A stretch of DNA of 64,000 nucleotides from the human T2T-CHM13v2.0 reference genome, Homo sapiens. The DNA lies in contig CP086569.2 in NCBI GenBank assembly GCA_009914755.4, positions 21,248,001 through 21,312,000 of the forward strand, written 5' to 3'. The notes beneath the pieces were generated by a model that was given only the letters and a program-made list of their open reading frames with translations, searched no databases and was not told the DNA's origin. Positions 17,560 through 48,600 of this stretch are shown one piece after another (position 1 is the first letter of the stretch; each line of letters opens with the position of its first letter). A program made the position numbers and the translations under genes.

Positions 17560-19760
17560 CTAAAAATTATGCTGTACAAAATATTGGTACTCACTTCCTA
17601 AAGTTCATTTTTTATGAATTCTTTTTGATTTAGTAGTATAGGTAGTGGTAAAAGAATCCACAAATTAAAAATACTTTTTAAATAAAGAAACTGTCAGAAA
17701 ACAAGATTTTGGAATAGAGTTTTCTATAATTACTGTGTTTTACACTAAGCACAGTACAAAATTGGTAACTAGAAAATTTTCATGAAGTGTCTTCTGAATT
17801 TATTCTAATAACACTCTGTTTCTAATGAGTTCACCATGTTAGATTTGACATCAAACCGAGAACACCTAGTATTTGTCTTGTGTCTGGCTTATTTAACTGA
17901 GCACGTTGTTTTCTAAGTCCATTGATGTTGTTGTAAATGGCTAGATATTCATCTTTTTATGGCTACATAATATTCTACTGTGCATATATAACATTTTATT
18001 TGTCATTCTTCTGTCAACAGATATTCAGGGTTTTTTTGTCTCCCTTGGCTGTTATAAATAATGCTGCAAAGAACACGAGGATGCAGATATTTTTAATCAC
18101 GGTCCTTATTTTCTTTTTGGTTATGTGTCCAGAATCTGGATTGCTGGATTATATGATAGATTTATTTATACTTTACTTTTGAAAGAAGATCCATATTGGT
18201 TTTTGTGGTGACTCTACAAAGTTACATTTAACAAAGAGTGCACAGGTTTTCTTTTCTCCACACCCTCACCAATGCTTATTAAGTCTCTTCTTTTTGTTAC
18301 TAAGCATCCTAACATATATGTGGTTGGTACCTCATCTTGCATTTGATTTACATTTGCCTGATGATTTGTAATTTTTATCAGTTTTGTATGTACTGCTTTG
18401 TTATTTGTGTGACTTCTTTGGATAAAACATCTATTCAGCCTGCTGTCTGTTTTCCAACTGAGTTATTATTGTCGTTAGTATTTTTTGCTTTGAATTGCAT
18501 GCTTTATAAGTATGCATGTATAATTTATATATATGATATTAACATACAAAATATATGGTTTGCAAATGTTTCTTTTCTGCAGGTTTTTAAAAATATTTTG
18601 TTTTTTTCTTTGGTGTGAAGACACTTTTTCATTTGATGCAGTCCCACTTGTTTATATTTGCTTGTGTTGCTGTGCTTTTGTTGTCATACCTAAAAAAAAT
18701 TTGCAAAGACCAACACCAAGAAAGTTTTGTCATGTATTTTGTTCTGATGAATTTTGAAATTTTATGTGTTACATCTGTCTTTATTTCATTTTAAGTTAAT
18801 TTGTAGTATACCATAAGAAAATGGTCAAATTCATTTATTCTGTTTATGAATAGTTAGTTTTCCAAGGGTGTTAATTTCCACATTGTGTAGTTTTGGTGCC
18901 TTTATCAAAAATTAGTTGACTTTGTATGTATAGGTTTTATTCTGGGATGTTTATACAGTTCCACTAGTTTTGTGTGGGTTGTCTGGTCATATCGTATGAT
19001 TTTCCTTAACAAAGCCTTTAAGTCACGTTTGAGATCAGGAACCATAGTGACCCCAGCTTGATTCCTTCTTAAGTCTGCTTAGACTATCTGGAGATGTTTG
19101 TGCTTCCATTCAAATCTATGAAATTGAAATACTTTTACTGGACTTTTGATTGGGATAACATTTAATCTGTAGATTTCTGTGGGCAATGTGGTGTTTATAC
19201 TACTAAATACCTTAATTTATAAACATTGAATGTACTATTATTTATTTACATCTACTTCAAATTCTATATGTATCTGAATGCACAGATGTTTAATATTCTT
19301 CATTATATTTATTCCAAGGTTTTTTTATTTTTACAATATTGTAAACTGAATTTGTTTTTTCTTTCCCTTTTTAGACAGTTTATTGTTAGCATGCAGAAAC
19401 ACAACTATTTGTGTATTTATTTTGATTTTTACTATTTTACTGAATGTACTTATTAGTTCTAACAGTCTTTTTTTGGTGTATTCTTGGATCTTAAATATAA
19501 GATTGTGCCATCTACAAATAGTGACATTTGAATGTGTAATTTAATTACTAATTTGGATGGCTCTTTAATTTTTTTTCCTAATTGTTCTGATACAGACTTT
19601 GAGTAACATGTTGAGATGAAAACATTGCTAGTACGCACAATGTAGTCTTGATCTGGTGTCTGTGCATTTAAAAATGGTAACACCTCTTCCAGTATTTACA
19701 AATTTGTAAAGTGGAGATCTCTCATTGAGTGATAAGGCTGATGTGATTGCCTCTTGGATT
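17560..19760 (-). mobile_element. Old LINE-1 (L1M/L1PB-like) 3' portion, 5'-truncated (3'UTR and ORF2 C-terminal/RT-proximal region in reverse complement)
   Basis: Diverged but colinear L1 minus-strand motifs: ttatggctacataatattctactgtgcatatata.., gatatatggtttgcaaatgtttcttttctgcaggtt, gatgcagtcccacttgtttatatttgcttgtgttgc, gtataggttttattctgggatgtttatacagttccactagttttgtgtgggtt, attgtgccatctacaaatagtgacatttgaatgtgtaatttaattactaatttggatggc. Confidence 0.6.
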
Positions 19761-20204
19761 GCAGAGAAATGGAGTTGCCTGTTCGTCACAAGTCTGCTGC
19801 TTGGTCGGCCTCTTGTGGTCCTGATACTAGGGGATTATGTAGTCATGGATTCTGTATGACCCTGAGATTGCAGATCCTTGAGTGCTTTTATCTATACGGC
19901 AGGCACTAGAATAGCATCATGCATTTGGGTCCATATACAGTGAATCTAATATCATCTGTGTAAATAGATTTCGTTCCCACTGAGTCCCTGAGATGGTTTT
20001 ACACAGGTCGCTATATGGGTCCCTGAGTGTGTCAGACTGTTAATGAACTGTGATTGTGAAGGCTGGAACTCAGTCACAGGACTGCTTTGAGAACCACAGT
20101 GCTGCCCAAGATCTGCAGGCCTGCTACAGAGCTATGGCTGGCTGATTCTCCCTGCAGGTCTTTCAATGGGAAAAATCATTTCTGGACCATTGCTGAGAGG
20201 AGTT

Positions 20205-22300
20205 GAGGTAATTCATGTAAGTGGAATCATACAGTACATGTCATTTTGTCACTGTCATTTCACTTAATATAATGTCTTCAGCATTTTCTATTGTAAAATG
20301 TGACAATATATTCTTAATGGAGCCTGGAGAACATTTTAGTGTAGTACGTATAAGTCACATTTTTAAAATTGAGTTTTCTACTGAGAAGAATTTTTGTATC
20401 GTCCAACTATTGCTTTTGTAAATATTGTTGCAATTAACATAAGTGTACTGATATCCCTTCCAGGTCCTGCTTTGCACAGTTTGAATAGATGCCTGTAAGT
20501 AGAGTTGCTGAATTATGTGATAAATTTGTTTTAATTTTTGAGGAATTTCCACACTATCTTTTGTAGCAGAGACTGCCTCATCATTTTTGTCCTCCACCAG
20601 CACACAAGGATTTCAATGTTTTTTACATCCTTAACATTATTTTTTGATTTCTTGATAGTGGCCATTTGGATGAGTATAATATGGTATGTTATTTTGGTTT
20701 TTTTTTCATTTTTTTCTAAAAAGTGGTCATTTTTCAAATTAATGTTGACTATATGTTATTTTTGAAGAAATCTCTGCTCATTTTTTTGTCCATTTCTTTA
20801 AACATTGTTGTTCACTTGTTGTTGTTAAACTTTTTGCAGTTATTTACATATCCTAGATATTATCTCCTGTCAAACATATGGTTTTAAAATACTTTGTCCA
20901 ATTCTTTGATGTAATTTTTATACCACTAAATGTTTCTTATGACAGGCACAAGTTTAAATTAATGTAGTACCATTTTAGTGTTCTCTTTGTTGCATATGAA
21001 GTTGATATCAAATCCAGAAAACATTGCCAAGATCTATATTATAACTTGTACCATATATTTTCTTTGAAAATTTGTAGAGTTTTAGTTGTTACATTTCACT
21101 GTGTAATCTATTAAAAACAGTTTTTCATATGTTTTGGAGACAAAGTCTAAACTCAAAATTTCCTAAGTAGAATATTGTTTCCCAACTTAATACACTGAAG
21201 AGAATTTCTTTTTCTTATTGTGTGATTACAGCAGCTCTGTGGAACATCATTTGATCATACACACAAGGGTTTATTTTTCTGGTTCTCTGTTCTGTTTCAT
21301 CATCTACTTTGCTGGTCTTTCTGTCAGTACTGCATTGTTATATTATTTCTATAGCCTACTAATCTGTTCTGAAATAGGAAGCGTGGGGCTTCTAATTTTA
21401 TTTTCTTTGGCTGTTTGGGCTACTCATAGTCCTTTGAGATTCTATATAAATTTAAAACTTGTTAAAATACTTCTGTAAATAACTCTCAGATTTTCATAGG
21501 GATTACATTGCATTTAAAAGACACCATGGATTGTATTTACATCTAAATAATATTAAATCTACTTACTCTTATTGAAGAGTGTGTTCAAGAGTTTAAGTTT
21601 CACATATGTATTAATTTGTCAGTATTGCTTTTGCTATTTTTACTAGTTTAATTTCATATGACCAGCGAAGACACATTGCATGATTTAGTCTTATTAAAAA
21701 TAATTAGTATTTTTTAGTGTTATAACAGATTGTCCATGAAACCACAACTATTTATTTTCTCTTCTCTATGCACCTGACAGAGTCCAATCCACTTTCTTTT
21801 TCCAAAACTTTATTTCAGGTATCTTACATAAATGGAACCATATATAGTATTTATCACTTTCTGCCTATCTTTTCACATAGCACAATGACCTCAATACATA
21901 TTTTTATTGTGAATATAACAAAAATTATTGCTCTCTAAAAGTTGAGTAATATTTAATTATTCATATATCTATATTTCTCAATATATTTTTCAAGAAAAGC
22001 TGGGTTCTTTCCACTTATTGATTTATGTGAATAATGCTACAATGAATACAGATGTGTAAATAACTTTATTTTACCCTATATACAAGAATTTATTTGCTGT
22101 ATTATGTTTCATTGATGTATTTACCTGTCTTTATTTTAGTACCAAAGTATGTTGATTACTATAGCCTTATAATATGTTTTTAGACCAGGAATTATGATGC
22201 CTCCAATGATGTTTCCCTTTTTGACAATGGTTGAGTTCTGGTCTCTTCAGATTTAATAGAGTTTACATAATTGCTATTTATATTAATGCAAAAAGTGAAT
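20205..22300 (-). mobile_element. Old LINE-1 fragments (at least two partial copies of the ORF2 C-terminal/3' region, the second starting near 21800), same orientation as the previous one
   Basis: ggaatcatacagtacatgtcattttgtcactgtcatttcacttaatataatgtcttcagcattttc (rc of the L1 motif ...ggaatcatacagtatttgtccttttgtgactggcttatttcacttagcataatgtcctc). This motif recurs at about 21830 (tggaaccatatatagtatttatcactttctgcctatcttttcacatagcacaatgacctcaatacat). Also gcagttatttacatatcctagatattatctcctgtcaaacatatggttttaaaatactttgtccaattc (rc of ...ggatattaaccccttatcagatatatggtttgcaaatattttctcccattc). Confidence 0.55.
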
Positions 22301-23079
22301 ACCTGTTATTTAAAGTATACCACCCTTTCCTTAAGCACTCTGTCAGTGGAGACAAAAACCAATATTTGAGCATTTATCTAAAAACCAGAAATGTACATAC
22401 ACATACCACTTTTCTTTTTCTCTCCCTTGGAAGCAACATAGAGTTGGAAGTTTCTCTTAATTTCACCATGCTGTACTTGGAGGAGGTAAGGCTGTGTTAG
22501 GTATATGAGACTAACTTTTCTTTCTAAATGAAACATTTTGTTGTTTTATACCCTTTTGGTCTTGCAAATATTTATCTGCTTTTTAGAGTTTCTACAAAGA
22601 CCATTAGATCAGTATAGAGTTAAGTTGATATACCTAAGATAAAATGAGAGCCACTTATTATATTTGTAAAGTATATTCAACTAAATCTGGTATGTGGGAT
22701 TTATTTTTATTTTTATTACTTTTGGTTTTGTGTAATTTGTACAACCAAAGTCTTTCACCAAAGCTAGCCATAGAAGGTTAATTTCAAAAAGTAATACTGG
22801 GAAAATATGCAAGCTGTGGCCTCAAAAATTTACATTGTAAAAAACTGGGAAAGATTAGGTGAAGATGAAGAGAAGAAATAATACCATAATACATATTATC
22901 AATTTGTCCCAATTCTCATAACAAAAATTTAAGTGCCAAAGGATATCAGGAACACAGAATATTTTAGAAAAAAAACTCAATTTATTTTGGCTACTTTTAA
23001 AGAACCACGTGTTTCTATAAACATGTATCAACATCATTTTTGAAATACACCTATCATAATAAAATTAGCAAAAAAGGAA

Positions 23080-24520
23080 ACCTTTATGGCTCAAACATTG
23101 ATAAACACCAAAGTACTAATTTTCCAAAGAATTATTACAATTGCAATAATTCATAAAATTATTTTGTTAGATCTCAAAACTTATTATCTATCAGTGTATT
23201 CATCTTTAAGAGAAGCCTTAAAATAGTAATGAGTGATAAAAATTTTAACGGTCTTCAGAACATCTAAATTTCAAATAATTCATGTTAGAACATACACAGA
23301 TGTAATAAATGCAGGAAAGCCTCTATTCACTTATTACTCAATAATTGAACCTTTAGTCAAATTATTATTAGAGAAAAATTCAAATGTAAAAAAAATTTGG
23401 CAATTATTTTAAAAAGCACTTAAACCCTACACAGCTTTACATCTCTTAATATTAGGCAGAAATTCAAATGCTAAAAAAATTGGCAAATCTTTTAACTGGC
23501 ACTCAATCCTTAAACAACATCAAAAAATCCATATAGGTGAGAAATTACAAATGTAAAAAATGTTGCAGGTCTTTATCCAGTATGCTCACCTTACATGATG
23601 TCAGAGAATCTGTACTGGTAAGAAATGCTGCAAATTTACAGAACGTGGCAAAGCCTTTAACTGTTTCTTAAACCTTATATATAAGAGAATTTATGCTGGA
23701 AAGAAGCTCTACAAATGTAAAAAAGTATAGTAAAGCCTTCAACAACTTTTAAAATTCTAGTGTACATCAGAAAATTTGTAATGGAGAGAAACCACCCAAA
23801 TGTAAAAATTGTGTCAAATATGCTAGCAGTATGCACACCTTACAGAACCTCAGAGAATGCATAGTACACCTTACACAGTATCAGAGAATGTATACAGGAG
23901 GAAAGCCCTATAAATGTGTATAAAGTTGCATAGCTTTTAACACACGTTCAAATTCTACTCAGAATCAGATAATTTATTTTAAAAAGAAATACAACAAATG
24001 TAATGAATGTGACATACCTTTCATTCATTTCTTTCTTTCTTTCTTTCTTTCCTTCTTATTTTTACTTTTGATTTTGAGACACATGTGCAGGGTGTGCCAG
24101 TTTGCTTCATAGGTAAATATGTGCCATGGTGGTTTGCTGTGTGTATCATCTGATCACATCATAGGTATTAGTGCTCAAACATTGTGCTACATAAGATAAT
24201 GTATACTAAATTTAAACCCTGCACATATAAAGAATATGTCTCAGTCATTAACTTGTGCTTACACATTACTCAACAGTAGCATATCAATACTAAATAGAAA
24301 TGCTATATCTGTAATAACTTTGAAAAGACCTCTGTTTCAAATCTACCTCTTATTGAGGACCATAGTATTTCTATTGAAAAAAATATATATGCAAATATAA
24401 AATAGGTAGTGAAGCCTTTAAGTGTTGCTCAAGTTTTACTTAAATAATTCCTATAGAAATAAACCATTATAAATGTGATAAAAATCAAGCCTACATATAA
24501 ATTACATGAATCAAGCTAGA
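23080..24520 (+). pseudogene. Decayed tandem C2H2 zinc-finger array relic (KRAB-ZNF-type finger repeats, period about 84 bp), heavily A/T-mutated, no open frame
   Basis: Repeated units of the form ..aaatgtaaaaaatgttgcaggtctttatccagtatgctcaccttacatgatgtcagagaatctgtactggtaagaaatgctgcaaatttacagaacgtggcaaagcctttaactgtttc.. versus the canonical finger unit ..ggagagaaaccctacaaatgtgaagaatgtggcaaagcctttaaccagtcctcaaaccttactacacataagagaattcatactgga... For example, cagtatcagagaatgtatacaggaggaaagccctataaatgtgtataaagttgcatagcttttaacacacgttcaaattctactcagaatcagataatttat translates approximately as [32 protein letters not shown] (cf. [33 protein letters not shown]). Confidence 0.6.
24028..24056. repeat. (TTTC)n microsatellite
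   Basis: tttctttctttctttctttctttccttc. Confidence 0.85.
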
Positions 24521-25529
24521 AATAAGACACTAGATATTACTCTAAATAACAACGTTTATTTTAAAGAATAGTTCAAAGTCCAAGTATTAGATAATTTGTT
24601 ACAAAGCAGCAGAGATTGATGGATCAATAAAATATTCACATTCAATGTATATTCATTTTGTAGTGACATTATTTGAAATGATTTGTGTGAATATTATTGA
24701 TATAATTAAAGTTATATTACTGAATAATACTTTATTTCTACTGTTTATGTAAAGCATGCAATTGATTGTTTATGTTAATCTCATCTATATTAGGTGAGCA
24801 TCATTCCCATCATCTCTCCAATAGAATATTGAAGGCACTGGCCTGAACAATGTATCATGACAATCCAAATGGTAGTGCTGTTTTGCTTTATTTACAGAAG
24901 TGTTGTAAGTCATGCATAAATTAGGTGTTCAGAGAATCATTCTTCTGAATTAAAATAGGACACCAAAACAGCTTGACATTTAGAAATAAATATTTTTACC
25001 AACTGATCATTAAGAAAAATGTCTGGCCAGTCCATTAACATTCTGATTCATCTTCATATTGGTATAGAAACAATGAACAAATCTACACAAATATTAGATG
25101 AATATTCAGATAACTTCCCTCTCATAGGACATAGATTCATTGTATGTTTAGTATTGTAAGTACATAGCCTCAGCTTAAAAAAAAAGGCATATTTTTATAT
25201 AGATCATGGTGGCAGTGGAACAAAAATACTTCTTTAGTGTTTGTAGGTCATTGAGAATAGAGTGGATTTTGAAATGCTTTACTTAGTGTAGCTTACATTT
25301 GATTTGATTAGAACTTAATTTGTTTTAATAAATAAAACTGATATTTTTAATTTATCAGCATGGCTTAATATTGAATGCTGTGTTATTCTATCAAAATTTT
25401 AACCGAATCCACCTTGCTCTAGGTTCTCATGCCATATAGTAATGACATATGATTGAGTAATATAGTCCAATGCTATGTTTATATTGTTTTTATTCTAAAT
25501 GATGAGAAACCCAAAAGAATTTAGAGGAC

Positions 25530-26130
25530 TTGGCCTGGGGCTAATAAGTGGCTGATGTGATGATTCATAGAGGCTGATTATCTTGGCCCAAGACCTATCA
25601 AGAGGTGAAGTGACAGCTTGTCCCAGGACCTTGGCCTAGGACCAGTTAGGGGCTTAAATGATGATTCATAGAGGCTGGACTCACAGTTTTAAAAAAGGGA
25701 AGAAATGTTTCCACCAGAACCCACCAGAGCTCACTGTACCCATGCCCACAAAAGAAAAAGCTTTTCTTCTGGGAGCTGACTGAGTGTACAAAGGACAAAG
25801 GTATTTCTATGACAGGCCTTCCTCTTTTATGTGTGTGAGCCAAAGGTTTCTGCAAAGTTTTATCTAAATAGGCCAGAGGTTTTTCTACCTGCACAGTCAC
25901 AGGCATGTCTCCAGACACAACTCTTTGTGCCAGAAGTTCCCTTATTGGTGCCTGTAGCTTGTACTTTTTTTTCCAGGCTGATTTTTATTATGTGAGAATG
26001 AGGCACTGACCCATGGGTCAGAGGCTTTCTGGGCAAGCTAGCTTACTCTTTTGGGTCGCCCCTTAGAAGTGGAGACCCTAACTGCTTTTAGGGAGATCGA
26101 GCATTGATCTTTCTGCCTACTTCCTGATGA
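25530..26130 (-). mobile_element. ERV LTR copy A (putative 3' LTR of a very old class-I ERV); about 75% identical to copies B and C
   Basis: Colinear with 35545-36130 and 39705-40270. Example: ...tgattcatagaggctggactcacag ... cccactgt(ac/gt)c(c/t)catgcccacaaaagaaaaag ... acaaaggacaaagg(t/c)atttct(a/g)tg(a/t)cag ... gtgagccaa(a/g)g(g/t)tt ... tg(c/t)(a/g)cagtcacaggcat / tgtgtagccatgagcat ... gagaatgaggcactgacccatgg / gaaatgagacactgacacatgg. Confidence 0.7.
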
Positions 26131-29733: not shown

Positions 29734-30432
29734 AATTTTTTTCTTTTTTTATTATACTTTAAGTTCTAGGGTACGTGTGCACAACGTGCAGGTTTAACTA
29801 GGTATACGTGTGCCATGTTGGTTTGCTGCACCCTCAACTCGTCATTTACACTATGTATTTCTCTTAATGCTATCCCTCCCCCAACTTCCCACCCCCTGAC
29901 AGGACCCAATGTGTGACGTTCCCCACCCTGTGTTCATGTGTTCTCATTGTTCGATTCCCCCTTATGAGTGAGAACATGCGCTGTTTCGTTTTCTGTCCTT
30001 ATAATAGTTTGCAGAGAATTGTGGCTTCCAGCTTTGCCCATGTCCCTGCAAAGGACATGAGTTCATCCTTTTTTATGGCTGCATAGTATTCCATGATGCA
30101 TATGTGCCACATTTTCTTAATCCAGTCTATGATTGATGGACATTTGGGTTGGTTCCAAGTCTTTGCTATTGTGAATAGTGCTGCAGTAGACATACGTATG
30201 CATGTGTCTTTATAGCAGCATGATTTTTAATCCTTTGGGTATATACCCAGTAATGAGATCTCTGGGTCAAATGGTATTTCTAGTTCTAGATCCTTGAGTA
30301 ATTGCCATACTGTCTTCCACATGGTTGAACTAATTTACATTCCCACTAACAGTGTAAAAGCATTCCAATTACTCTACATCCTCTCCAGCATCTGTTGTTT
30401 CCCGACTTTTTAATGAGCACCATTTTAACTCG
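29734..30432 (-). mobile_element. L1PA-type 3' end fragment (3'UTR and ORF2 C-terminus, reverse complement) inserted into the MaLR element
   Basis: T-rich run then tattatactttaagttctagggtacgtgtgcacaacgtgcaggtttaactaggtatacgtgtgccatgttggtttgctgcaccctcaactcgtcatttacactatgtatttctcttaatgctatccctccccc ... ttatggctgcatagtattccatgatgcatatgtgccacattttcttaatccagtctatgattgatggacatttgggttggttccaagtctttgctattgtgaatagtgctgcagtagacatacgtatgcatgtgtctttatagcagcatgattt... Confidence 0.85.
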
Positions 30433-31959
30433 AATTAAAAACCTAGTAAGTTGTTTTTATTATGTGCTAGGTGCAGATACAGTCTTACTTCTTTCAGCAT
30501 AGTTAGGATTGTGCTTACTTTTATATGTCCTCCAATGTTACTGGTAGTGAATGAGGCAAGGTGACAGTTTTTAAAAGTCAAAGAAGTAGTTTGAAATCTT
30601 AAAACTTTTAGCAACATAGCATCTGTCCTACATAATTTACACAATCTATTTAAATCTTGCAGACATTTGCATTTTAACAATAATCTTCAAAGGTGTTTTT
30701 ACTTTACAAAAATTAAAGTCATATGGACTGAAAAGTACCACACCCTTTATCTTTCCTTTAAAATTATTTGATTTGAGCCCATATACTTTTTTAATTAACT
30801 AGAGCTCTTTTTAAATAGATATCACACACATAACACCTATATAACCACAGAGACCAGTAGAAGATTTTGTAGTTATACAATCTCTAGTTGGTCAGTTTCC
30901 CAACTGGATTATTGGCCTCCATGTGAAGTCCTTTAAGAACTGGGTGAGGAATAAAGTTACCAAGGTCTAGTAAACAAGCATAGCCCGAAGACAAAGAGAT
31001 TTTGAGAGATAATTATTCATATGTAACTTCAGTCGTTTAAGAAGGCAAACAAGATTTGTGCTGCCTTTTCTGTTTTCTCAGGGAGCCACAGGCCACCAGA
31101 AGTGATCCCAGGGCCTTTATTCCAGGCATCAAGAGTGGCAAGATAAAGTGGAGGAAAGTAATTCTATCACCTGAGGAAAAATCCTTTTCCATAAAACAAG
31201 ACCTATGAAGACAGAAAAATAAAGACCTTTTGAATATACCTATATATTAGATATCCACTTTTAGTTAAGCTGAATGCTATTTAAGAAAATCATTTTTCAT
31301 TAATTGAACCTTACAGAGAATATAAACAGTGATTCTGATAATTTTATTTTCTGGTTTGCATCACTACCTGTTCAGAATCATGTTAAGTTTCTCCAGTTTC
31401 CTCTGGAAAAAAAGTGTTTGGGTTCAGGCAAGGGTAGGTTTTCAATTAGACTGAAGATACCTCTAATAACAAAGCTTGATATTTGAGGAGGGATTGCTAG
31501 CCAGAGGCTTCCCTTAAAGGACAGCAGTACTGCTATACTGGGTGGGATGCAAACAGTTAAGTTATTTTATGTGGTTAACACCATAGCCTCTGGCACCAGC
31601 AAAGCCACTGCTGTAATTTCTCAGAGGCAAGTTGCCCATACTTTAGCCATCAAGTCAACTTCCTCACTTAGATAACCCACTAGTTGAGCTATAACTCAAG
31701 GCTTAGTTAAAAATCCCTGGGCTATTCTTTTTTTTTCTGATACGTAGATATTAAATACATTTTCTGTCAGAAGATTGAAGGTTGACGCTTTAAGTAAGGT
31801 TTGCTTTAGCTAGCTAAAGGCTTTGAGTTTGGGGTTCATAAATGAATTTAGGGAGATAGTTTTAGCTGCTTGAGTTTATTTTATGAAGTAGTGTAAAAGA
31901 TGAACTATTTTATTGTATTCCAGTACCCAAAATCTTCAAAATAAAATAATGCCTAAGAA

Positions 31960-35544: not shown

Positions 35545-36130
35545 ATTGACCCAGGGCCTTGGCCAAGGACCAGTCACACATTTTGCCTTAGACTGTGCCC
35601 AGTCCAATCAGGGGCTGAAGTGCTGATTTATAGGGACTGCTCATCTTACTGTGCTACCCATCAGGAGCTGAAGTGAAAGCTTGGCCTGGGAATATAGCCC
35701 AAAACTAATCAGCATCTGAAGTAATAATTCATAGAGGCTAGGCTCACAAACGAAAAGAAAAAGATAGCACCCACTGGAATCTACCAAAGCCCACTGTGTT
35801 CATGCCCACAAAAAGAGAAGAAACTTTTTCATGAGATGCTAATTATACAAAAGACAAAGGCATTTCTGTGTCACAGCTTGTTTCCTTATATGGGTGAGCC
35901 AGATGTTTGTGAAAGTTCTTGATTAAATGGGCTGGAGATTTCCCTGTCTGTGTAGCCATGAGCATATTTTCAGTTACAACACCCCTGTGCTATTTCCCTT
36001 ATTACTGCCTGCAGCTTGATTATTTTTTCCCAGTCAGCTTTCTATGTTATGTGGAAATGAGACACTGACACATGGTTTGGGGACTCCCTGGGGGTCCTTC
36101 CTTTACTGTCTACCAAAGGCAGGCTATTTC
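35545..36130 (-). mobile_element. ERV LTR copy B (shared between the two tandem units); carries 3-4 sub-repeats of ~45-50 bp with CCAAT-like cores at its low-coordinate end
   Basis: gggccttggccaaggaccagtcacacattttgccttagactgtgcccagtccaatcaggggctgaagtgctgatttatagggactg / ctcatcttactgtgctacccatcaggagctgaagtgaaagcttggcctgggaatatagcccaaaactaatcagcatctgaagtaataattcatagaggctagg. The LTR body is colinear with copies A and C. Confidence 0.7.
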
Positions 36131-39704: not shown

Positions 39705-40270
39705 GCTTTGCATAAAATCAGAAAGCATGGGCCAGGACCAATCAGCAGCTGATGAAACAATTTATAGAGGCTGTTATTTTGGCCTGGGATTTATCTAGAG
39801 CTGAAGTTATAGCTTGGCCCAAAAACTTACTCCTGGACCAATCAAGAGCTGACATGAAAATTTATAGAGCCCAGCCTCACAATTCAAAAAGAAAAGAAAA
39901 GTTCCCACTGAAACTTACTGGAGTCCACTGTGTTCAAGCCAACAAAAGGAGAATAAACTTATTACTGGGAGCCAGCTGATTACACAAAGGACAAAAGCTT
40001 TTCTATGCCAGGCTTTTTAAATTTATCTGAGTTATCTTATTTATCTGGAGGCTTGTGCAAGTTTTTATGTGAATGGGCTGGAGATTCTCCTCTCTGTGCA
40101 GCCAGTGGCATGCCTACAGTAACAACCCATGTGCTAGTTAACCTATAAGTTCCTGAAGCTTGATTTCTTTTCCCTGGCTGCTTTTTGAGTTATGTAGGAA
40201 TGAGGTCCTGTCGCATACATCAGGGGCCCTCTAGGAACCCCTCTCTTGGTTTCTACCTAATGCAAGTAAC
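39705..40270 (-). mobile_element. ERV LTR copy C (5' LTR of the upstream partial unit), with CCAAT-containing sub-repeats
   Basis: catgggccaggaccaatcagcagctgatgaaacaatttatagaggctg / ttattttggcctgggatttatctagagctgaagttatagcttggcccaaaaacttactcctggaccaatcaagagctgacatgaaaatttatagagcccagcctcac ... then the body is colinear with LTR copies A and B. Confidence 0.7.
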
Positions 40271-40495: not shown

Positions 40496-43275
40496 TAACT
40501 AGCTTATGTGTAAAGTTATCAATGGAAGCACCGAAAGGAAGAAATATATTAAGATGCAAGAAGGCAATAAAGGCTATATTTTTTAGTCAGATTTTATTTA
40601 ATTTACAGAAATGTTTATTAAATTTTCTGTCATGATTTTTACCTCAACACATGGCTTCTAATATAATTTACCTGTTAACTCATGGATAAACTGTTACTTC
40701 AGAATTGAAGAGCCTCTTTAATTTAGCATGTGCTTAAATTGCTGGCCCCATCCTGCATATTACTGATTCAGCTGCTGTGAACTTTGGTCAAAAAATATGT
40801 CTTTTTTTTTCCAAGTTCTCAGGTGTTTTCAATGCTGCTAGCCAATGGAAACCAGTTGCAGGACCAATGGCTGGGTGCATATTTATTGATTTCATCTGCA
40901 GTAAAAATATTGACCCAGAGGGTATGCAGTCAAATACACAAGAGACCATTTTTGATTTTAAGTGGACACAGGTCTTACTCATAGTAATGTAAAAGTGGGG
41001 CCAAATATATCAGAATTATTTAATTTTGATTTTGAGGGGTTGATAAAATCTGGTTTTATGTTGAAAGCCTGAATATTGTTCTTGGCCTACGTTAGTCAGT
41101 TAAATATTCAGTTGGGGCCTATGTATTTGGTCTGGGCTGGAACTGAAATTGTGAAGTTTTATGCACTGAATATCTGGTCTGTGTGAACACATCTGGATGG
41201 GTCACTGAGAGTGCAATGGGTGAAATAATTCAATAATACAATTCTTTCTATAATTATAAATCCTTCTATTGCTGTGATGGTTACATGGGAGTGATGTGGG
41301 GATATGGTGGTGGAGACAATGAAGGTTTAGGAGCATAGAATCACACCCAGGCTTGGAAAAGATGTTACATCTCTGAACTCTGTTCTTTACTCCAGTGTAA
41401 GCCTCTTCAGGGTCCTCGTTATATAATTAGCAAAATCTCACAGAGGGGGCTGCAGATTTTGATATTACAGAAAAAAACATGCATCATAGAGTTGGCTCCA
41501 CATATCCTTAGACCTTTTCTATTCTCTCTTGTTTTACTAGCTTTGAAATTTTCCTTCAGTTGACACTCTCAGTGTTATAGTATAAAATCTATGCTGCTTA
41601 TTTATTAGGTGAAATTATATAAATGAACTACTCACATATGTAATTATATTTCTAACATTATAAATTGGTTTGAGAACTTTTAAATTTTAGGTCTTATTTG
41701 TTTCTATTTTAAATAATTTGACAATTTTTATTGATTTTTGATATACTAGAATATTTTTTAAATAAATTTTTCTCATACAATTAATTACAATACATACTCT
41801 GTATGTGATTTTGACTTTGCTTCTGTTAAAATTTTTGGAAAAAAACATTCAAATGTATCATTATTATTGTAAATATCTCTTAGGTATAATTTTACAGTTA
41901 TTATAAAAGATTTCTCAATAATTCTCATGTAAGTCTATTGCTTCATTTTGGTAAATTCATAAAGAAATTTTCATTTGTTATTTATTTTTTCTATTTTTTA
42001 GTTTCCATAGCACATCAATAATTTATTCTTTGTGTTTCAAACGTTCAATTATACTTTCTTAGTTATTTTACAATGAACAATTAAATTGCCTTCACTACAG
42101 ACACCATGTTGAGCTAGCAAATACTGGGTCTTACTTATTATTTAAATTTTTGCAGCCACTAGCCATCCACTCTTCCCTCTAACCCCACCAACTACTCTTA
42201 CCAGCATCTGACAATCATCCTTTCTTTTTCTAACTCTCTTACTTCAATTGTTTCACTTGTTAGATCTCAGAAATAAGTGAGAACATACAATATTTGTCTT
42301 TCTCTACCTCTGTTATTTCACATAACATAATGATTTCCAGTTCTATCCATGTTGTTACAAATGACAGGATCATATTTTATTTTATGGCTTAATAGTACTC
42401 CACTGTATATATGCAACAGATTTTATTGATCAGTTCCTCAGTTAGTAGACATAGGTTTCTTCCAAATCTCAGTTATTGTTAATAGTGCTGCAATAAACAT
42501 GAAAGTTCAGATATCACTTCAATATAATGACTTTATTTCTTTTGATTATATACCCAGCAGTGGGATTGTTGGCCATACAGTAGCTCTATTTTTAGTTTTT
42601 GAGAAAGTTTCAAACTGTTCCCCATAGAGGTTATACTGATTCACATTCTTACAGTGTTGGAGGGTTCCTTTTCTCCAAATCCTCAAGAGCATTTGTTATT
42701 GCCTGTGTTTTGGATAAAAGTCATTTTAAGTGGAGAGAGATAATAAGTAATTGTCATTTTGATTAACAGTTCTCTGATAATGATGTTGATGACCATTTCC
42801 CATGCCAGTTTTCCATTTGTACACCTTATGAGAAATTAGTATTCAAGTCTTTTGTCCATTTTATATGAGATTATTATATTTTTTCTATGAAGTTCTTTGA
42901 AATTCTTATATATTATGGCTATCAGTCCCTTGCCAGATGACTGGTTTTGAAATTGTTTTTCTAATTCTGTGGGGTTTTTTCCACTTTGTTGATTTTTTTA
43001 TTTGCTTTGCAGAGCCTTTTAAACTTGATGTGATTTTGTTTGTTAATTTTTGCTTTGTTTTACTTTTCCTGTGTTGTATTGCTCGAGCAATTTTTGCTGA
43101 GTTCAATGACTGGGAGAGTTTTCCATATGTTTTCTTGTTTCACAGTTTCATAGTTTCAGGATTCAGATTTAAGTCTTTAGTACAGTCTGATTCGATTTTT
43201 ATATATAGTGAGAGATAGGGGTCTGCTTTCATTCTTCTGCCTGTAGATATTCAGTTTTCATAGCACCACTTCTTG

Positions 43276-43299
43276 AAAAAAAAAAAAAAAAAAAAAAAA
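43276..43299. repeat. A(24) homopolymer inside the old L1
   Basis: gaaaaaaaaaaaaaaaaaaaaaaaag. Confidence 0.8.
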
Positions 43300-44600
43300 G
43301 CTCTTTTCCCAACGTATGTTCTCAGCACTTTTGTCCAAAATGATTTTTCTGTGAATGAATTGAGTTATTTCTGAGTCCTTTAATCTGTTCAAATGGTCTA
43401 TGTGCCTGTTTATTTGCCTGTCAACCATGTCATTTTGGTTACTATAGCTCTATAACATAATTTGAAGTGATAATATGGTTTCTATAGATTTGTTCTTCTT
43501 GCTTAAGATAGCTTTGGCTATTCTAGGTTATTTGAGGATTTATACAAAATTTAGATTTTTTTATTTCTGTAAAAATATCTGATATTATGATAGGAATTAC
43601 ATTATCTCTGTAGATTCATTTAGGTAGTACACATTTTAAAAATATTCATTCTATCATTTCATAAACAAGGCATACCTTTCCATTTTTAGGTGTCTTCAAT
43701 TTTTTACATAAGTGTTTTATAGTTTTTTCTATAGCGACTTTACACTTTATTAGCTAAGGTAAATTTTATGTATGTAATTTTATTTGTAGTATTGTAAGTA
43801 ATATTGATTTCTTATTTTTTCTCAGCTTGTTCACTGTTAGCAGATATAAATATTACTAATATTTATATGTTTATTTTTTATTCTACAACTTTGCTAATCT
43901 TATCATTATTGATCTTATAGCTGTTTGGTGGATTCTTTAAGATATTTTTCAAATGTAAGATTATATCATCAGCAAACAATAATAATTTGACTTATTTTTT
44001 TGTTTGTTTTTCTTCTGATTGCTCTAGGTAGAATTTTCAGTACTACCTTGAATAACAGTGGTGATGCTGGACATCCACTAAAATGTAAAATATTTTATAG
44101 GAACTACTTTCCTTTTTTTCCATTTAGTACGATGCTAGAGTAAGGTCTCTCATATATGGCTTTTATTATGTTGAGGTATGTTCTTTTTTGGGGGGTGAGA
44201 AGGTTTGTTATGAAGCAATTTCAAAGAAAGTGTGCTTTTTCAGCATGAATTAAAATGATCATATGGTTTTATTATTTATTCTGTTGATATGATATATTCC
44301 ATTGATTGATTTAGATATGTTGAACTCTTCTTGTATCTCTGGAATAAATGTCACTTGGTGATGATAAACAGTCTTCCTAATGTATGGTTGAATTCATTTT
44401 GCTAATATTTTCTTCCAGATTTTTTGTATTAATATTTATCAAAGATATTGGCCTGTAGTTGTTCTTTCAGGTATTTCTTTGCTTTTGGTATCAGAGTAAT
44501 ACTGGTCTTGTAGAATGAATTTGAAAGTGTTCCTTCTCCCTGTATTCTTCAAAATTTTTTGAGGAGGGCTGCTATTAGTTTCTCTTTAAATATTTAGTAC

Positions 44601-44898
44601 GGGCTGGGGATGGTGGCTCAGGTCTATAATCCAAGCAATTTTGGAGGCTAAGCAAAGTAGATCACTTATGGTGAGGAATTTGAGTGCAGCCCAGATAATG
44701 AAACCCTGTCTCTACTAAAAATAAAAAATTAGTTAGGTTTGGTTCTACCGGCCTGTAATCCTAGCTAGCAGGGAGGCTGAGGCACAAGAATTGTTAAATC
44801 CAGGAAACAGAGGCTTCAGTGAGCCACGATTGTGGCACTTTCCTCCTGCCTTGGTGACAGAGAAAGTCTTTATATTAATATTAATAATAATAATAATT
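44601..44898 (+). mobile_element. Alu (+, older/diverged) inserted in the old L1
   Basis: gggctggggatggtggctcaggtctataatccaagcaattttggaggctaagcaaagtagatcacttatggtgaggaatttgagtgcagcccagataatgaaaccctgtctctactaaaaataaaaaattagttagg ... cctgtaatcctagctagcagggaggctgaggcacaagaattgttaaatccaggaaacagaggcttcagtgagccacgattgtggcact... A/T-rich tail. Confidence 0.85.
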
Positions 44899-45392
44899 TG
44901 TGGAATCAGCAGTGAAGCCATCTGATCTCAGATATTTTTAGCTGAAAGTCTTTTTATTACAGCTTTGGCATATTTACTTGTTCTTGATTTTTTCAGGTTT
45001 GAATTTTTCATGGTTGAATATTGGCATGTTGTATGGTTCTAGAATTTTTTTTTAAGAATTCCCAATGTATTGGCATATAGTGACCTTAGTGGTCATTATC
45101 TTTTGAATTTCCGGCCCATCAGTTCTAATGTTTTCTTTTCATCTCTAATTTTTTAATTTGTGTTCTCTCTTTTAGTTTATCTTGAAAACTAAAAGGTTTA
45201 TCAATTGTATTTAGTTTTTCAATAAACCAACCTTTATTTCATTGATTTTTTCTTTTGTTTTCATAATAATTTCATTTATTTTTGTTTTCATCTTTATTAT
45301 TTATTTTCTCCTTTTAATTGTGGATTTGATTTGTTTTTGCCTTTCTAGTTCTTTAATATGTATCAATAAGTGTTTTTATATAAAAGTTAATC

Positions 45393-45607
45393 TTTTTTTT
45401 TTTTTTTTTTTGAGATGGAGTCTTGCTCTGTCACCAGGCTGGAGTTGCAGTGGCATGATCTTGGCTCACGGCAACCTCTGCCTCCCAAGTTCCAGCAATT
45501 CTCCTTCCTCAGCCCACCGAGTATCTGGGGCTATAGTGCAAGCCACCACGCCCAGCTAATTTTTGTATTTTTAGTAGAGATTGGGTTTCATCATATTGGC
45601 CAGGATT
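45393..45607 (-). mobile_element. Alu (minus orientation, 5'-truncated: about 215 bp) inserted in the old L1
   Basis: tttttttttttttttttt gagatggagtcttgctctgtcaccaggctggagttgcagtggcatgatcttggctcacggcaacctctgcctcccaagttccagcaattctccttcctcagcccaccgagtatctggggctatagtgcaagccaccacgcccagctaatttttgtatttttagtagagattgggtttcatcatattggccaggat. Confidence 0.85.
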
Positions 45608-48600
45608 CTTTTTTTATGTAGGCACTTGTAACTATATACATCATTCATAACTGCTTTTACTGTATTCCATAAATTTTGGGATAAATTTGGAATGTGGTGT
45701 TTCCATTATTTGTTTCAGAATTTTTTTAAATTTTCTTTTGAAGGTCTTTTTTAATTCACTTGTCATTCAGGAACATATTCTATTTATCTTTATGTTGATC
45801 CTTAGTTTTATTTTATTGCGGTCAGAGAAGACCCTTGATACTGTTTCAATTTTTTGAATGTTTTCATACATTTTTTACCTACTATACATCTTTGAGAAAC
45901 AACCATGTTTTAAGGAAAAAAAATGTGTATTTTGCAGCCATTTGATGAATGTTTTATAAATATCTATTAAGTTTGTTTGATCTATAGTGCAGATTTCATC
46001 TAATATTTCTGTGTTGATTTTCTGTTTGACAAATCTGTCCAGTGCTGAAAGTATAGTGTTGAAGTCTTCAGCTATTACTGTATTGAGCCTATATTTCTTA
46101 TTAGCCTTAATAATATGTGCTTTCAGTGTGGGTGTTTACACACCTAAAATTATTATATCCTCCTGCTGAATTGACCTGTTTGTCATGATTCAGTGACCTT
46201 CTTCTTACAGTTTTTGTCTTGTAATGTGTCTAGCGTGATATAAGCATAAATACTTCTGCTTTTTTTTTTGGTTTCCATTGACAGAATATTTTTTCTATTT
46301 TTTAAATTTTCAGTCTATTTGAGCCTTATAAATAATGTATGTCTTTTTCAGGCAACAGATTATCGGGCCTTGTTTTCTTATGTATTCAACCACTGTATAT
46401 TTTTTGTGTGGAGAATTTATTCTATTTCTATTCAATGTTATTATTGATAATCAGAAACAGTTTACATTTTTCTATTTGCTATTTTATCAAATTTAGTTTT
46501 CCCTTCTCTTTTTAATAAAGGTAATATTTTCAGTTATATAATTTAATTGCTTTTTATTTTCTGTGTATCTGTTGTATGTTTTCTGATTTGACCTTGCCAT
46601 AAGATAGGAAGATACTACTTTACAACCAATTATTTTAAGCTGATAACAACCTTGTTTCAGCAGCAAACAAACAAATGAACAAGCAAGAATAAAACTAGTA
46701 AACATTTACAGCTTAACTTTGCACCCCTCATTTTTAACTTTTTTTTTGTTTCTATCTTTATCTTATGTTCTGAAAAATTGTAATAGTTGTCTGTCTGTGG
46801 ACGTAGAAGTCTATGGTGTTTACTTTCAGTTTTGTTGTCTAAGTTTGTCTTGTTTTTCTTGGCAAACATTTCACATACTTAAAATGTCTTGAGTGTTGTA
46901 ATCTAAGATGTATCTGCATCAGGGGACACTCAAAATCCAGTCATGTTTTGGTTCTAGCAGACTTATATTGGTACTATCTTAATAATTTGGGTCAAGGTCT
47001 AGAATTCTCTGAATTTTACTGCAGAAATTTTTGTCCTGTTTCTTACTTTTTCTTAAGAAACTCTCTGTTTTGAGCCACCTGGAGTGGAGTGACCCAAGAA
47101 CCCCTGCTGCCACCACAATGAGGAATGTGCTGGGTTAGAATTGAAGCCAGGACAGCACTGTGTTCAGCCCAGGGCCTACTGTAACCAAACCCTGACTACT
47201 GCCTTTGTTTGCTCTACATGCTGGGGCTCTATGATAATCAGGTGGAAAAGTCAGTTAAGCCTATGTTCTTCCATATGGGTGGCAAAATTCTCTGGGTCCA
47301 TGGTTGGTCCAGAGTTGTCATCTGGGAGCCAAGGACTAGAGTCAAATATTTTACATGTTGACCTCGGTCTTCTATTGCACTGTGCCTCAGCTGGCAAAGA
47401 AATTACAAGACACAGTCTTCCTACACTTTTCTCTCCTTTTCAAAGGCAGAGGAACCGCATTTCCTGGCCATTGTGAACTCAAGTCCAAAGGACATAGTGC
47501 CAATCAGCTGCTGATATTGCTTTAGGACCCAACAGTTATTTAGTCAGCTTGTGTTAAATTTTGCCTTTCTGGGGTCACTCTTCAGGGCAGTGGTTTCCCC
47601 ACTGTCCCAGTGCAGGTCCAGGTGTGTCATTTAAGATCCAAGGCCTTTAATTGGGCTCCCCAGTGGCCAACTTTGTGTTTTATTTTGCTGTGGAAGAGCT
47701 AACACCTATGGTGCAAGCTTACTCCCCTTTATCTTTCTCCATGTTTTTCTCCAGCAGAAAACGTCTTCTTCTATAGCCACCACAACTGGAAGTGAGTTGT
47801 TTCTCACCTGAAGCCAACAAATCTCAGATTCTTACCCAAAGTTTATGACATACTACCTTGTTACTGTTGTTTATTCAGGGTCCAAGCATTCTTCAGTTAG
47901 AAGACAATAAATGCTGTCAGGATTGTGTTTATTATTCTTCAAGGTAGCAGCTTCCCTTTTAGTCCAAAGTATTTCTAGACATATCATCTTGTAACTCAGT
48001 CCTGTATAGATGGCCTCACAAATCTGACTGCTGGCCTATTCTGTTGTGGCTAAGCTGGTATTCAAGATACAAAACGAAGTCTTCCTCCACTCTTCCCATT
48101 CTTTTATTCTAGTGGAAGAAAAGGATCTCTTTTGAGCTGTAAGCTTTGCAGGCTCAAGGTAGAGTAAGAGTGGAACGAGCACTCCCTTACCTGCCCCAGT
48201 TGATTTCTTAGTAGGTAATGTGCCATACCAGTTTACCGGCTTTGAGCCCAGTGAAGTTTTAGGTCTTGCATGAGTTGCAGGCATTGTGGCCTAGAGTGTC
48301 TTTCAAGTTTGTGTGTGATCCCTTAGCACTCCAGCCTAAAGTGGTGAGACTTGTAGAAACTCGAATTCCATCCACTGAGATGAACAATTTTTCTCTGGCT
48401 AGGACTTTTTAAAATACTTTCACAGTTTATGGGTATTACCTGAATTTTGTCTGATTTTGCTTTCTGCTGTAATGAGGTATGAATAGGTTCAAAGCAAAGT
48501 CTCACAATTGATCTATTCTCCACAGAATCTCCCTCCATGTCACAGCTGATGGATGAGTAACAAGTAACATTTGCAATTCACAAGTGGATCTTCTGCCTTT

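What the first reader, a model, noticed from the sequence alone, without database searches (positions are those of the whole stretch)
23080..24520. Relic of a tandem C2H2 zinc-finger (KRAB-ZNF-type) array decayed beyond coding capacity
About 1.4 kb shows an 84-bp periodicity whose units align to the canonical zinc-finger-plus-linker DNA ([28 protein letters not shown] encoded by ggagagaaaccctacaaatgtgaagaatgtggcaaagcctttaac...). For example, aaatgtaaaaa(a/t)tgt..caa(a/g)..(a)gcctt(t/c)aac recurs at about 23384, 23467, 23549, 23633, 23713, 23799, 23907 and 23994. Conceptual translation still shows ..[26 protein letters not shown].. The array is riddled with stops and G>A/C>T decay, is interrupted by a (TTTC)n repeat and a short L1 3'UTR-like piece (about 24060-24210), and has no ORF. 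This looks like a dead member or fragment of a KRAB-ZNF gene cluster, the kind of region that is also rich in ERV and L1 insertions.
Basis: partly seen in the sequence, partly recalled or inferred. Interest (0 to 1): 0.5.

Follow-up and report, generated by a model that had tools for sequence, protein, structure and literature searches.

The report
Dead KRAB zinc-finger gene relic
This stretch is the badly decayed remains of an old KRAB zinc-finger transcription-factor gene in primate-type DNA, a non-functional pseudogene of a common kind, so the finding is real but ordinary.

Summary
Window 23090-24535 (+ strand) is a tandem array of about 16 units of 84 bp. These units are decayed C2H2 zinc-finger-plus-linker repeats.

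- **Periodicity:** autocorrelation peaks at lags 83/84, 165/166 and 247/249. A self-BLAST gives a match at offset 84.
- **Match to a consensus finger:** a wrap-around alignment to an 84-bp consensus finger scores 524, against at most 38 for shuffles.
- **Protein similarity:** raw-frame tblastn gives E=8e-17. The frameshift-corrected peptide hits ZNF568 at E=1.5e-54.
- **Methods that missed it:** TRF, and Pfam on raw six-frame translations, because of frameshifts and lost Cys/His residues.
- **Decay:** no unit keeps all four zinc ligands. There are 13 in-frame stops, and the longest ORF is 59 aa. C>T and G>A changes dominate.
- **Later damage:** a 5'-truncated L1 3' end in minus orientation, with its (GAAA)n tail, is inserted at 24018-~24170 without shifting the repeat phase. 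A 31-bp tandem duplication sits at 23835-23894.
- **New evidence:** a KRAB-A box remnant lies 5.8 kb upstream on the same strand (17262-17324). It scores 22.4 bits against Pfam KRAB, cut-off 20.4. A probable first half lies at 16808-16860.

This supports the KRAB-ZNF reading. No KRAB-B box and no other ZNF were found in the 64 kb, so cluster membership is not shown. Whether the pseudogene is unprocessed or processed is unresolved. Interest is low.

The parts
16808..16860 (+). Probable first half of the KRAB-A box (VETFEDMVIIRVWQQC). It is separated from the second half by about 400 bp of TA-rich and other sequence.
   Evidence: It is the third-best locus of 12,786 six-frame windows for first-half KRAB-A consensus sequences, and lies about 400 bp upstream of the second half on the same strand. 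The DNA GACATTTGAGGATATGG matches a consensus-type KRAB-A cDNA at 16/17, scoring 30 against a null maximum of 25 in 200 shuffles. Joining it to the second half raises the Pfam KRAB score to 31 bits and extends coverage to profile positions 3-38. Alone it gives no Pfam hit, so it is probable but not proven.
17262..17324 (+). Second half of the KRAB-A box (G-LDTAQ*KLCSDVMLGNYRYL), with one in-frame TGA. It is followed by tggcgtaac, which may be the remains of the exon's GTAAGT splice donor.
   Evidence: Pfam PF01352 KRAB is the only family hit. It scores 22.4 bits on the 62-aa fragment (cut-off 20.4, E=9.4e-5) and 18.2 bits in the 600-aa frame (E=0.0019), covering profile positions 19-38 of 42. 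tblastn with a ZNF91-type KRAB gives E=0.004. DNA identity to a consensus-type KRAB-A cDNA is 50/60, scoring 78-80 against a null maximum of 29. The top PDB hit is the ZNF93 KRAB domain, 7z36_D. The donor reading is my inference from the sequence.
23090..24017 (+). Decayed C2H2 zinc-finger array, upstream part. It has a partial unit at 23090, then units starting at about 23121, 23204, 23284, 23367, 23451, 23533, 23614, 23695, 23780 and 23894, and the first ~50 nt of the unit starting at 23978.
   Evidence: Wrap-around alignment, tblastn E=8e-17, self-BLAST at offset 84 and PDB phmmer hit to ZNF568 at E=1.5e-54.
23835..23894 (+). A 31-bp tandem duplication (1.9 copies, 82% matches) of the ..HLT.HQRIH.. 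segment within one finger unit. It shifts the reading frame.
   Evidence: TRF. The unit at 23780 is 114 nt instead of 84 in the wrap-around alignment.
24018..24057 (-). (TTTC)n on the + strand. This is the (GAAA)n A-rich tail of the inserted L1 fragment, read on the opposite strand.
   Evidence: TRF finds period 4 with 9.8 copies. It abuts the 3' end of the minus-oriented L1 piece. That it is the L1 tail is an inference.
24058..24170 (-). 5'-truncated L1 3'UTR fragment inserted into a finger unit.
   Evidence: 24020-24139 matches the 3' ends of other L1 copies in the window: 7610-7730 at 75% identity (E=1.5e-14), 57024-56920 and 1247-1146. An L1 3' end written from memory hits 24139-24081 on the minus strand at E=2.6e-8. 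The finger register is interrupted near column 50 of the unit and resumes near column 49-52 at about 24171, as expected for a clean insertion.
24171..24535 (+). Decayed zinc-finger array, downstream part. It holds the end of the interrupted unit, then units starting at about 24205, 24289, 24373 and 24453. These are the most decayed units.
   Evidence: Wrap-around alignment. The block starting at 24001 scores 136 against a background of 38.

Best explanation
The locus is the fossil of a KRAB zinc-finger (KZNF/KZFP) gene on the + strand. When alive it would have encoded a repressor with an N-terminal KRAB domain and about 16 tandem C2H2 fingers. The KRAB domain recruits TRIM28/KAP1 (established knowledge of the family).

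What survives is the KRAB-A exon and the large terminal zinc-finger exon. The KRAB-A remnant is at 17262-17324, with a probable first half at 16808-16860. The zinc-finger exon is at 23090-24535.

The gene lost function long ago and has since drifted neutrally in an AT-rich region:
- C>T and G>A changes dominate.
- Every finger has lost at least one zinc ligand.
- Stops and frameshifts are everywhere.
- A 31-bp tandem duplication and a 5'-truncated L1 insertion disrupted two units.

It now does nothing as a gene. The 5.8-kb gap between the KRAB-A and finger exons fits the usual intron-containing KZNF layout. I therefore favour an unprocessed pseudogene, either a dead duplicate or a dead single-copy gene, over a retrocopy, but this last step is inferred and not shown.

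The age is probably of the order of 100 million years or more. This is inferred from 32-38% change at invariant Cys/His codon positions.
For: **Zinc-finger array**
- 84-bp periodicity.
- Wrap-around score of 524 against at most 38 for shuffles, and the only such array in the window.
- tblastn E=8e-17 on raw frames, against at most 22.3 bits in shuffles.
- The corrected peptide hits ZNF568 at E=1.5e-54, plus 95 further zinc-finger chains.
- Pfam zf-H2C2_2 at E=1.6e-5.
- The only large-database hit is a KRAB+ZF protein, ZNF709-like from Otolemur, at E=7e-12.

**KRAB**
- Pfam KRAB is the sole family hit at 17262-17324, scoring 22.4 bits against a cut-off of 20.4.
- The per-model p-value implied by E=0.0019 over 24,736 models is about 8e-8 per 600 aa. 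That gives roughly 2e-5 for the whole six-frame window (my arithmetic).
- DNA identity of 50/60 to a KRAB-A consensus.
- The best PDB hit is the ZNF93 KRAB domain.
- The remnant is on the same strand and upstream of the array.

**Death and decay**
- No intact C2H2 quartet in 15 units, 13 stops, 47 deleted and 13 inserted nt.
- C>T at 32% and G>A at 32%, against A>G at 8% and T>C at 8%.
- Longest ORF is 59 aa.

**L1 insertion**
- Confirmed against the window's own L1 copies.

**Host genome**
- Primate-type L1 ORF2 copies at 79-96% identity, ancient L1 fragments, and probable Alu copies.
Against: - Pfam finds no zinc-finger family on raw six-frame translations. The corrected peptide's zf-H2C2_2 score of 25.5 bits is below the 40-bit cut-off.
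- TRF does not call the array.
- The frameshift correction was guided by a consensus finger, so the E=1.5e-54 is somewhat flattered. The raw-frame tblastn does not have this bias.
- The KRAB-A match covers only half of the box. In the 600-aa context it is just under Pfam's cut-off (18.2 against 20.4 bits). tblastn bit scores of 26 are only slightly above the best shuffled score of 23.9.
- No KRAB-B box was found.
- The consensus DNA and KRAB sequences used in local alignments were written from memory.
- The intron-versus-insertion nature of the 5.8-kb gap is unresolved. At least about 2.3 kb of it is ancient L1.
Confidence: 0.85

Rival explanations
1. Processed pseudogene. A KZNF mRNA was reverse-transcribed by L1 machinery and inserted into this AT-rich region. 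Later transposon insertions pushed the KRAB part and the finger array 5.8 kb apart.
For: - The locus is a lone ZNF relic. No other ZNF or KRAB lies in the 64 kb.
- The surrounding DNA has 29-32% GC, typical of L1-mediated insertion sites (background knowledge).
- At least about 2.3 kb of the gap is ancient L1: 17837-19714 and 20411-20701, minus strand.
- A weak KRAB-B-like string, SKPVDFASAL, lies only 36 bp after the KRAB-A end, as expected if the A and B boxes were contiguous.
Against: - The KRAB-B-like string ranks only 566 of 12,780 windows, which is not significant. PDB and Pfam alignments stop at the end of the A box.
- A GTAA-containing, donor-like sequence follows the A box (my reading).
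- About half of the 5.8-kb gap has no recognisable transposon origin with the tools available, and roughly 50% transposon content is simply the genome average.
- No poly(A) tail or target-site duplication was identified.
Confidence: 0.2
2. Relic of a poly-zinc-finger gene that never had a KRAB domain, such as a ZNF-only or SCAN-ZNF gene. On this reading the KRAB-like match 5.8 kb upstream is coincidental or belongs to something else.
For: - Only half a KRAB-A box is clearly seen.
- No KRAB-B box was found.
- tblastn scores for KRAB are close to shuffled maxima.
Against: - Pfam KRAB is the only family hit and exceeds its cut-off on the fragment.
- DNA identity to KRAB-A is 50/60, scoring 78 against a null maximum of 29.
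- The match is on the same strand, in the expected order and at a typical distance.
- A second top-ranked KRAB-A first-half match lies 400 bp upstream.
Confidence: 0.08
3. A non-genic 84-bp minisatellite or tandem repeat that resembles zinc-finger DNA only by chance.
For: TRF and Pfam (raw frames) fail to call anything.
Against: - tblastn E=8e-17 on raw frames against at most 22.3 bits for shuffles.
- 96 zinc-finger chains in the PDB matched at E<=1e-3.
- The preserved positions are those of the TGEKPY linker and of Cys, Phe and His.
Confidence: 0.01

Closest known systems
Unprocessed KRAB-ZNF pseudogenes of mammalian genomes (birth-and-death evolution of C2H2-ZNF genes; 66 of 718 human C2H2-ZNF loci were annotated as pseudogenes in PMC2443715)
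   Same: - A KRAB-A remnant lies upstream of a long 84-bp-periodic finger exon on one strand.
- The reading frame is lost through stops and frameshifts.
- Transposons have inserted into the locus.
   Different: - It is much more decayed than typical annotated ZNF pseudogenes. No finger is intact and profile HMMs miss it on raw frames.
- No neighbouring ZNF genes lie within 64 kb.
- The KRAB-B box is not detectable.
Living KRAB zinc-finger proteins such as ZNF568 (PDB 5wjq/5v3m) and ZNF93 (KRAB domain, PDB 7z36)
   Same: - 28-residue finger-plus-linker units with remnants of the TGEKPYKC...GKAF...L..H.RIH pattern.
- A KRAB-A motif, LDTAQ.NLYR.VMLENY.NL.
   Different: - There is no open reading frame.
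- All zinc-ligand quartets are broken.
- It cannot encode a protein.
Processed (retrotransposed) ZNF pseudogenes
   Same: It is a lone copy in AT-rich, L1-rich DNA.
   Different: - KRAB-A and the fingers are 5.8 kb apart rather than contiguous.
- No poly(A) tail or target-site duplication was seen.

Membership tests
Tandem C2H2 (Krüppel-type) zinc-finger array | Head-to-tail units of 28 codons (84 bp) | tested here: met
   - Autocorrelation peaks at lags 83/84, 165/166 and 247/249.
- Self-BLAST match at offset 84.
- 15 near-full units in the wrap-around alignment.
Tandem C2H2 (Krüppel-type) zinc-finger array | C-X2-C-X12-H-X3-H zinc-ligand pattern in each unit | tested here: not met
   No unit keeps all four ligands. 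The first two codon bases are retained at 83% for C8, 59% for C11, 55% for H24 and 50% for H28. This is expected of a relic. It shows descent from fingers, not functional fingers.
Tandem C2H2 (Krüppel-type) zinc-finger array | Significant sequence similarity to bona fide zinc-finger proteins | tested here: met
   - tblastn E=8e-17 on raw frames.
- phmmer against the PDB: ZNF568 at E=1.5e-54, with 96 zinc-finger chains at E<=1e-3.
Tandem C2H2 (Krüppel-type) zinc-finger array | Pfam zf-C2H2 or zf-H2C2_2 above the gathering score | tested here: not met
   Raw frames give no hit. The corrected peptide scores 25.5 bits against zf-H2C2_2, cut-off 40.
KRAB-ZNF gene (KZNF/KZFP) | KRAB-A box upstream of the fingers on the same strand | tested here: met
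   - PF01352 at 17262-17324 scores 22.4 bits on the fragment (cut-off 20.4) and 18.2 bits in the 600-aa context, covering profile positions 19-38 of 42.
- DNA identity of 50/60.
- Only half of the box is secure. The probable other half is at 16808-16860.
KRAB-ZNF gene (KZNF/KZFP) | KRAB-B box (present in many KZNFs but not all) | tested here: inconclusive
   No significant match on the + strand between 17.3 and 23.1 kb. The SKPVDFASAL string at 17361 ranks 566 of 12,780.
KRAB-ZNF gene (KZNF/KZFP) | Intact open reading frame, i.e. a living gene | tested here: not met
   The longest ORF is 59 aa. There are 13 in-frame stops and many indels, and a TGA within KRAB-A. It is therefore a pseudogene.
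KRAB-ZNF gene cluster member | Other ZNF genes or pseudogenes nearby | tested here: not met
   No other ZF array or KRAB box in the 64-kb window. Clusters are defined with distances of up to 500 kb (PMC2443715), so a wider view is needed.
Processed pseudogene | Exons contiguous, a 3' poly(A) tract and flanking target-site duplications | tested here: inconclusive
   KRAB-A and the fingers are 5.8 kb apart. Part of the gap is ancient L1. Poly(A) and target-site duplications are not recognisable at this level of decay.
5'-truncated L1 insertion | Similarity to the L1 3' end, an A-rich tail and target-site duplication | tested here: met
   - 75% identity to other L1 3' ends in the window.
- A (GAAA)n tail, read as (TTTC)n on the + strand.
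- The finger register is preserved across the insert.
- A target-site duplication could not be identified.

The most novel reading that the evidence does not exclude
The relic may be an unannotated lone fossil of a KZFP lineage that died roughly 100 million years ago or more. Its orthologue might still be alive in some other mammals. If so, it would record a dated lineage-specific loss of a transposon-controlling repressor. Nothing here suggests that the relic has a present function.
Probability: 0.15. Interest if true: 0.25.

Novelty: already known. Interest (0 to 1): 0.08.

Why it matters
It matters little on its own. KZNF genes evolve by birth and death, and dead copies are an expected by-product (PMC2443715).

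The modest value is methodological. A relic this decayed escapes both TRF and Pfam on raw frames. A periodicity-aware, frameshift-tolerant alignment recovers it cleanly, and its KRAB-A exon can still be found 5.8 kb away. Catalogues of extinct KZFP lineages could use such fossils to date gene losses.

Tried and rejected
- **TRF at minimum score 30.** It reports no 84-bp array, only the 31-bp duplication and (CTTT)n.
- **Pfam on raw six-frame translations of 22300-25000.** No family at E<=10.
- **Rfam on the whole window.** No match at gathering score.
- **Large protein database search with the corrected peptide.** Only 235 word-sharing candidates and one hit, so the closest living paralogue could not be identified.
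- **KRAB-B search.** A B-box scan over all six frames found nothing significant. The SKPVDFASAL string after KRAB-A is at background level.
- **A KRAB-A-like string at 19740-19781 (DVIASWIAEKWSCL).** It ranks second in the first-half scan, but no LDTAQ..VMLENY continuation follows it. I treated it as chance.
- **A weak ZF-like tblastn hit at 30086-29955 (E=3.5).** It overlaps the Cys-rich C-terminus of an L1 ORF2 copy, so it is not a ZNF.
- **Target-site duplication of the L1 insert.** It could not be recognised.
- **Chance or minisatellite explanation.** Rejected on the shuffle controls.

Full report

Yes. The region 23080-24520 is AT-rich, with 550 A, 465 T, 232 C and 194 G.

Its autocorrelation peaks at lags 83 and 84 (z=3.7 and 3.3), with later peaks at 166 and 247. 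In the core 23340-24020, lag 83 reaches z=4.1, with 165/166 and 247/249 also raised. I ranked 313 sliding 1.44-kb windows by the summed z at the three harmonics. The top six all overlap this region.

A self-BLAST that uses no consensus aligns 23362-23723 to 23446-23808. That is an offset of 84, at 67.6% identity and E=2e-14. It also aligns 23517-23609 to 23764-23858, an offset of about 248.

Two standard tools miss the array:
- TRF reports only a 31-bp duplication at 23835-23894 and (CTTT)n at 24018-24057.
- Pfam finds nothing on raw six-frame translations.

**2. Is it zinc-finger DNA?**

Yes. tblastn of six copies of a consensus finger against the raw frames gives E=8e-17 (23546-24022) and E=1e-13 (23473-23724). 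These are the only significant hits in the 64 kb. Block-shuffled windows reach at most 22.3 bits, against 68.9 observed.

A wrap-around DNA alignment to an 84-bp consensus finger scores 524, against 24-38 for shuffles. It traces units from 23090 to about 24480. No other 2-kb block on either strand exceeds 38.

I removed the L1 insert and one copy of the 31-bp duplication and realigned. This gave 15 near-full units plus a partial one, spanning 23090-24535. Each unit is 54-80% identical to the generic consensus.

The frameshift-corrected peptide matches 96 zinc-finger chains in the PDB. The best is ZNF568 at E=1.5e-54, followed by Aart, PRDM9 and a consensus zinc-finger protein. It gives Pfam zf-H2C2_2 at E=1.6e-5, which is below that family's cut-off.

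The correction was guided by a consensus, so the PDB score is somewhat flattered. The raw-frame tblastn result does not have this bias.

**3. State of decay**

- No unit keeps all four zinc ligands.
- There are 13 in-frame stops, 47 deleted nucleotides and 13 inserted nucleotides.
- The longest ORF is 59 aa.
- At the first two bases of the invariant Cys and His codons, 38% of sites are changed. In the seven core units the figure is 32%.

By inference, this much change at once-invariant sites points to an inactivation of the order of 100 million years ago or more. The figure is rough for two reasons. Some fingers may already have been degenerate while the gene was alive. The outer units are also hard to align.

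The two copies of the 31-bp duplication differ by about 18%. The duplication is therefore itself old.

**4. The insertion**

The segment 24020-24139 matches the 3' ends of other L1 copies in the window:
- 7610-7730 at 75% identity, E=1.5e-14
- 57024-56920
- 1247-1146

Those are the same places hit by an L1 3' end that I wrote from memory. That query also hits 24139-24081 on the minus strand at E=2.6e-8.

The fragment is therefore a minus-oriented, 5'-truncated L1 3'UTR. The adjoining (TTTC)n is best read as its (GAAA)n tail on the other strand.

The finger register stops near column 50 of the unit at about 24017 and resumes near column 49-52 at about 24171. The L1 therefore dropped cleanly into an existing array.

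**5. Outside the given coordinates: a KRAB box**

I scanned all six frames with KRAB sequences. One hit appeared on the + strand at 17256-17324, reading FQGLDTAQ*KLCSDVMLGNYRYL (tblastn E=0.004).

Pfam, which does not depend on my memory, reports KRAB (PF01352) as the only family for this frame:
- 18.2 bits, E=0.0019, for a 600-aa translation
- 22.4 bits, E=9.4e-5, for the 62-aa fragment, above the 20.4-bit cut-off
- profile positions 19-38 of 42 covered

Dividing out the 24,736 models and multiplying by the roughly 213 such pieces in the six-frame window gives an expectation near 2e-5 for this one family (my arithmetic).

At DNA level the segment is 50/60 identical to a consensus-type KRAB-A cDNA, scoring 78-80 against a null maximum of 29. 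The best PDB match is the ZNF93 KRAB domain.

The first half of the box is probably at 16808-16860, reading VETFEDMVIIRVWQQC:
- It is the third-best locus of 12,786 windows.
- Its DNA matches at 16/17, scoring 30 against a null maximum of 25.
- Joining it to the second half raises the Pfam score to 31 bits over profile positions 3-38.
- Alone it gives no Pfam hit, so it is probable rather than proven.

No KRAB-B box is detectable.

**6. Context**

The window is primate-type DNA:
- L1 ORF2 copies at 79-96% amino-acid identity to a human-type ORF2.
- A ~300-bp repeat at 15163-15462 with several copies in the window, probably Alu.
- Ancient L1 fragments.

The 5.8 kb between KRAB-A and the fingers contains old minus-strand L1 pieces at 17837/18044-19714 and 20411-20701.

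There is no second ZNF array or KRAB box in the window. Membership of a cluster is therefore not shown. Clusters are usually defined over distances of up to 500 kb (PMC2443715), so this window cannot exclude it.

**7. Explanation**

The locus is a dead KRAB-ZNF gene. A split KRAB-A exon remnant lies about 5.8 kb upstream of the remnant of the terminal finger exon. Both are on the + strand and both are heavily decayed.

The spacing and a donor-like GTAA after the A box favour an unprocessed pseudogene. A retrocopy later split by transposons remains possible, at about 0.2. I could not resolve this without a repeat library or a genome alignment.

It has no plausible present function as a gene.

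**8. Comparison and verdict**

This is a member of a well-known class. C2H2-ZNF genes evolve by duplication and loss, and 66 of 718 human loci were annotated as pseudogenes in one catalogue (PMC2443715). The only unusual aspects are the depth of decay and the apparent isolation.

The finding is correct but ordinary, and I score interest at 0.08.

Noticed in passing
window 6000-13000 (minus strand): Large, young primate-type L1 sequence with long open ORF2 pieces, including a 321-aa endonuclease-domain ORF at 10849-11814. tblastn places the ORF2 C-terminal region at two adjacent stretches (6417-7605 and 7858-9177), so more than one copy or a rearranged or nested copy is present.
   Followed up: partly
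window 1-1250 (+), 29954-30438 (-), 52172-52408 (+), 56000-59900 (mixed): Several further L1 3' portions at 72-96% amino-acid identity to a human-type ORF2. The 56-60 kb stretch looks like a mosaic of L1 pieces in both orientations.
   Followed up: partly
window 17837-19714 and 20411-20701 (minus strand); also 42269-46450 (minus): Very old L1 ORF2 remnants at 27-36% amino-acid identity. The first two lie between the KRAB-A relic and the finger array.
   Followed up: partly
window 16440-17010: Long TA-rich, low-complexity stretch (imperfect TA/TATA repeats) that flanks and partly separates the two KRAB-A pieces.
   Followed up: no
window 15163-15462: A ~300-bp element with similar copies near 2347, 27619, 44611, 45404, 49667 and 53006. 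It is probably Alu, but was not checked against a consensus.
   Followed up: no
window 25543-26033, 35606-36075, 39740-40235: A ~500-bp sequence present three times in the window at about 68% identity. Its repeat family was not identified.
   Followed up: no
window 19740-19781 (+): The string DVIASWIAEKWSCL resembles the first half of a KRAB-A box and ranks second in the scan. No continuation follows, and it lies at the edge of an old L1 fragment, so it is probably chance.
   Followed up: partly
window 60900-63400: The most GC-rich part of the window (42-44%), with several overlapping 100-180-aa ORFs on both strands, for example 61412-61957 (+) and 61818-62297 (-). Whether any is an exon was not tested.
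   Followed up: no
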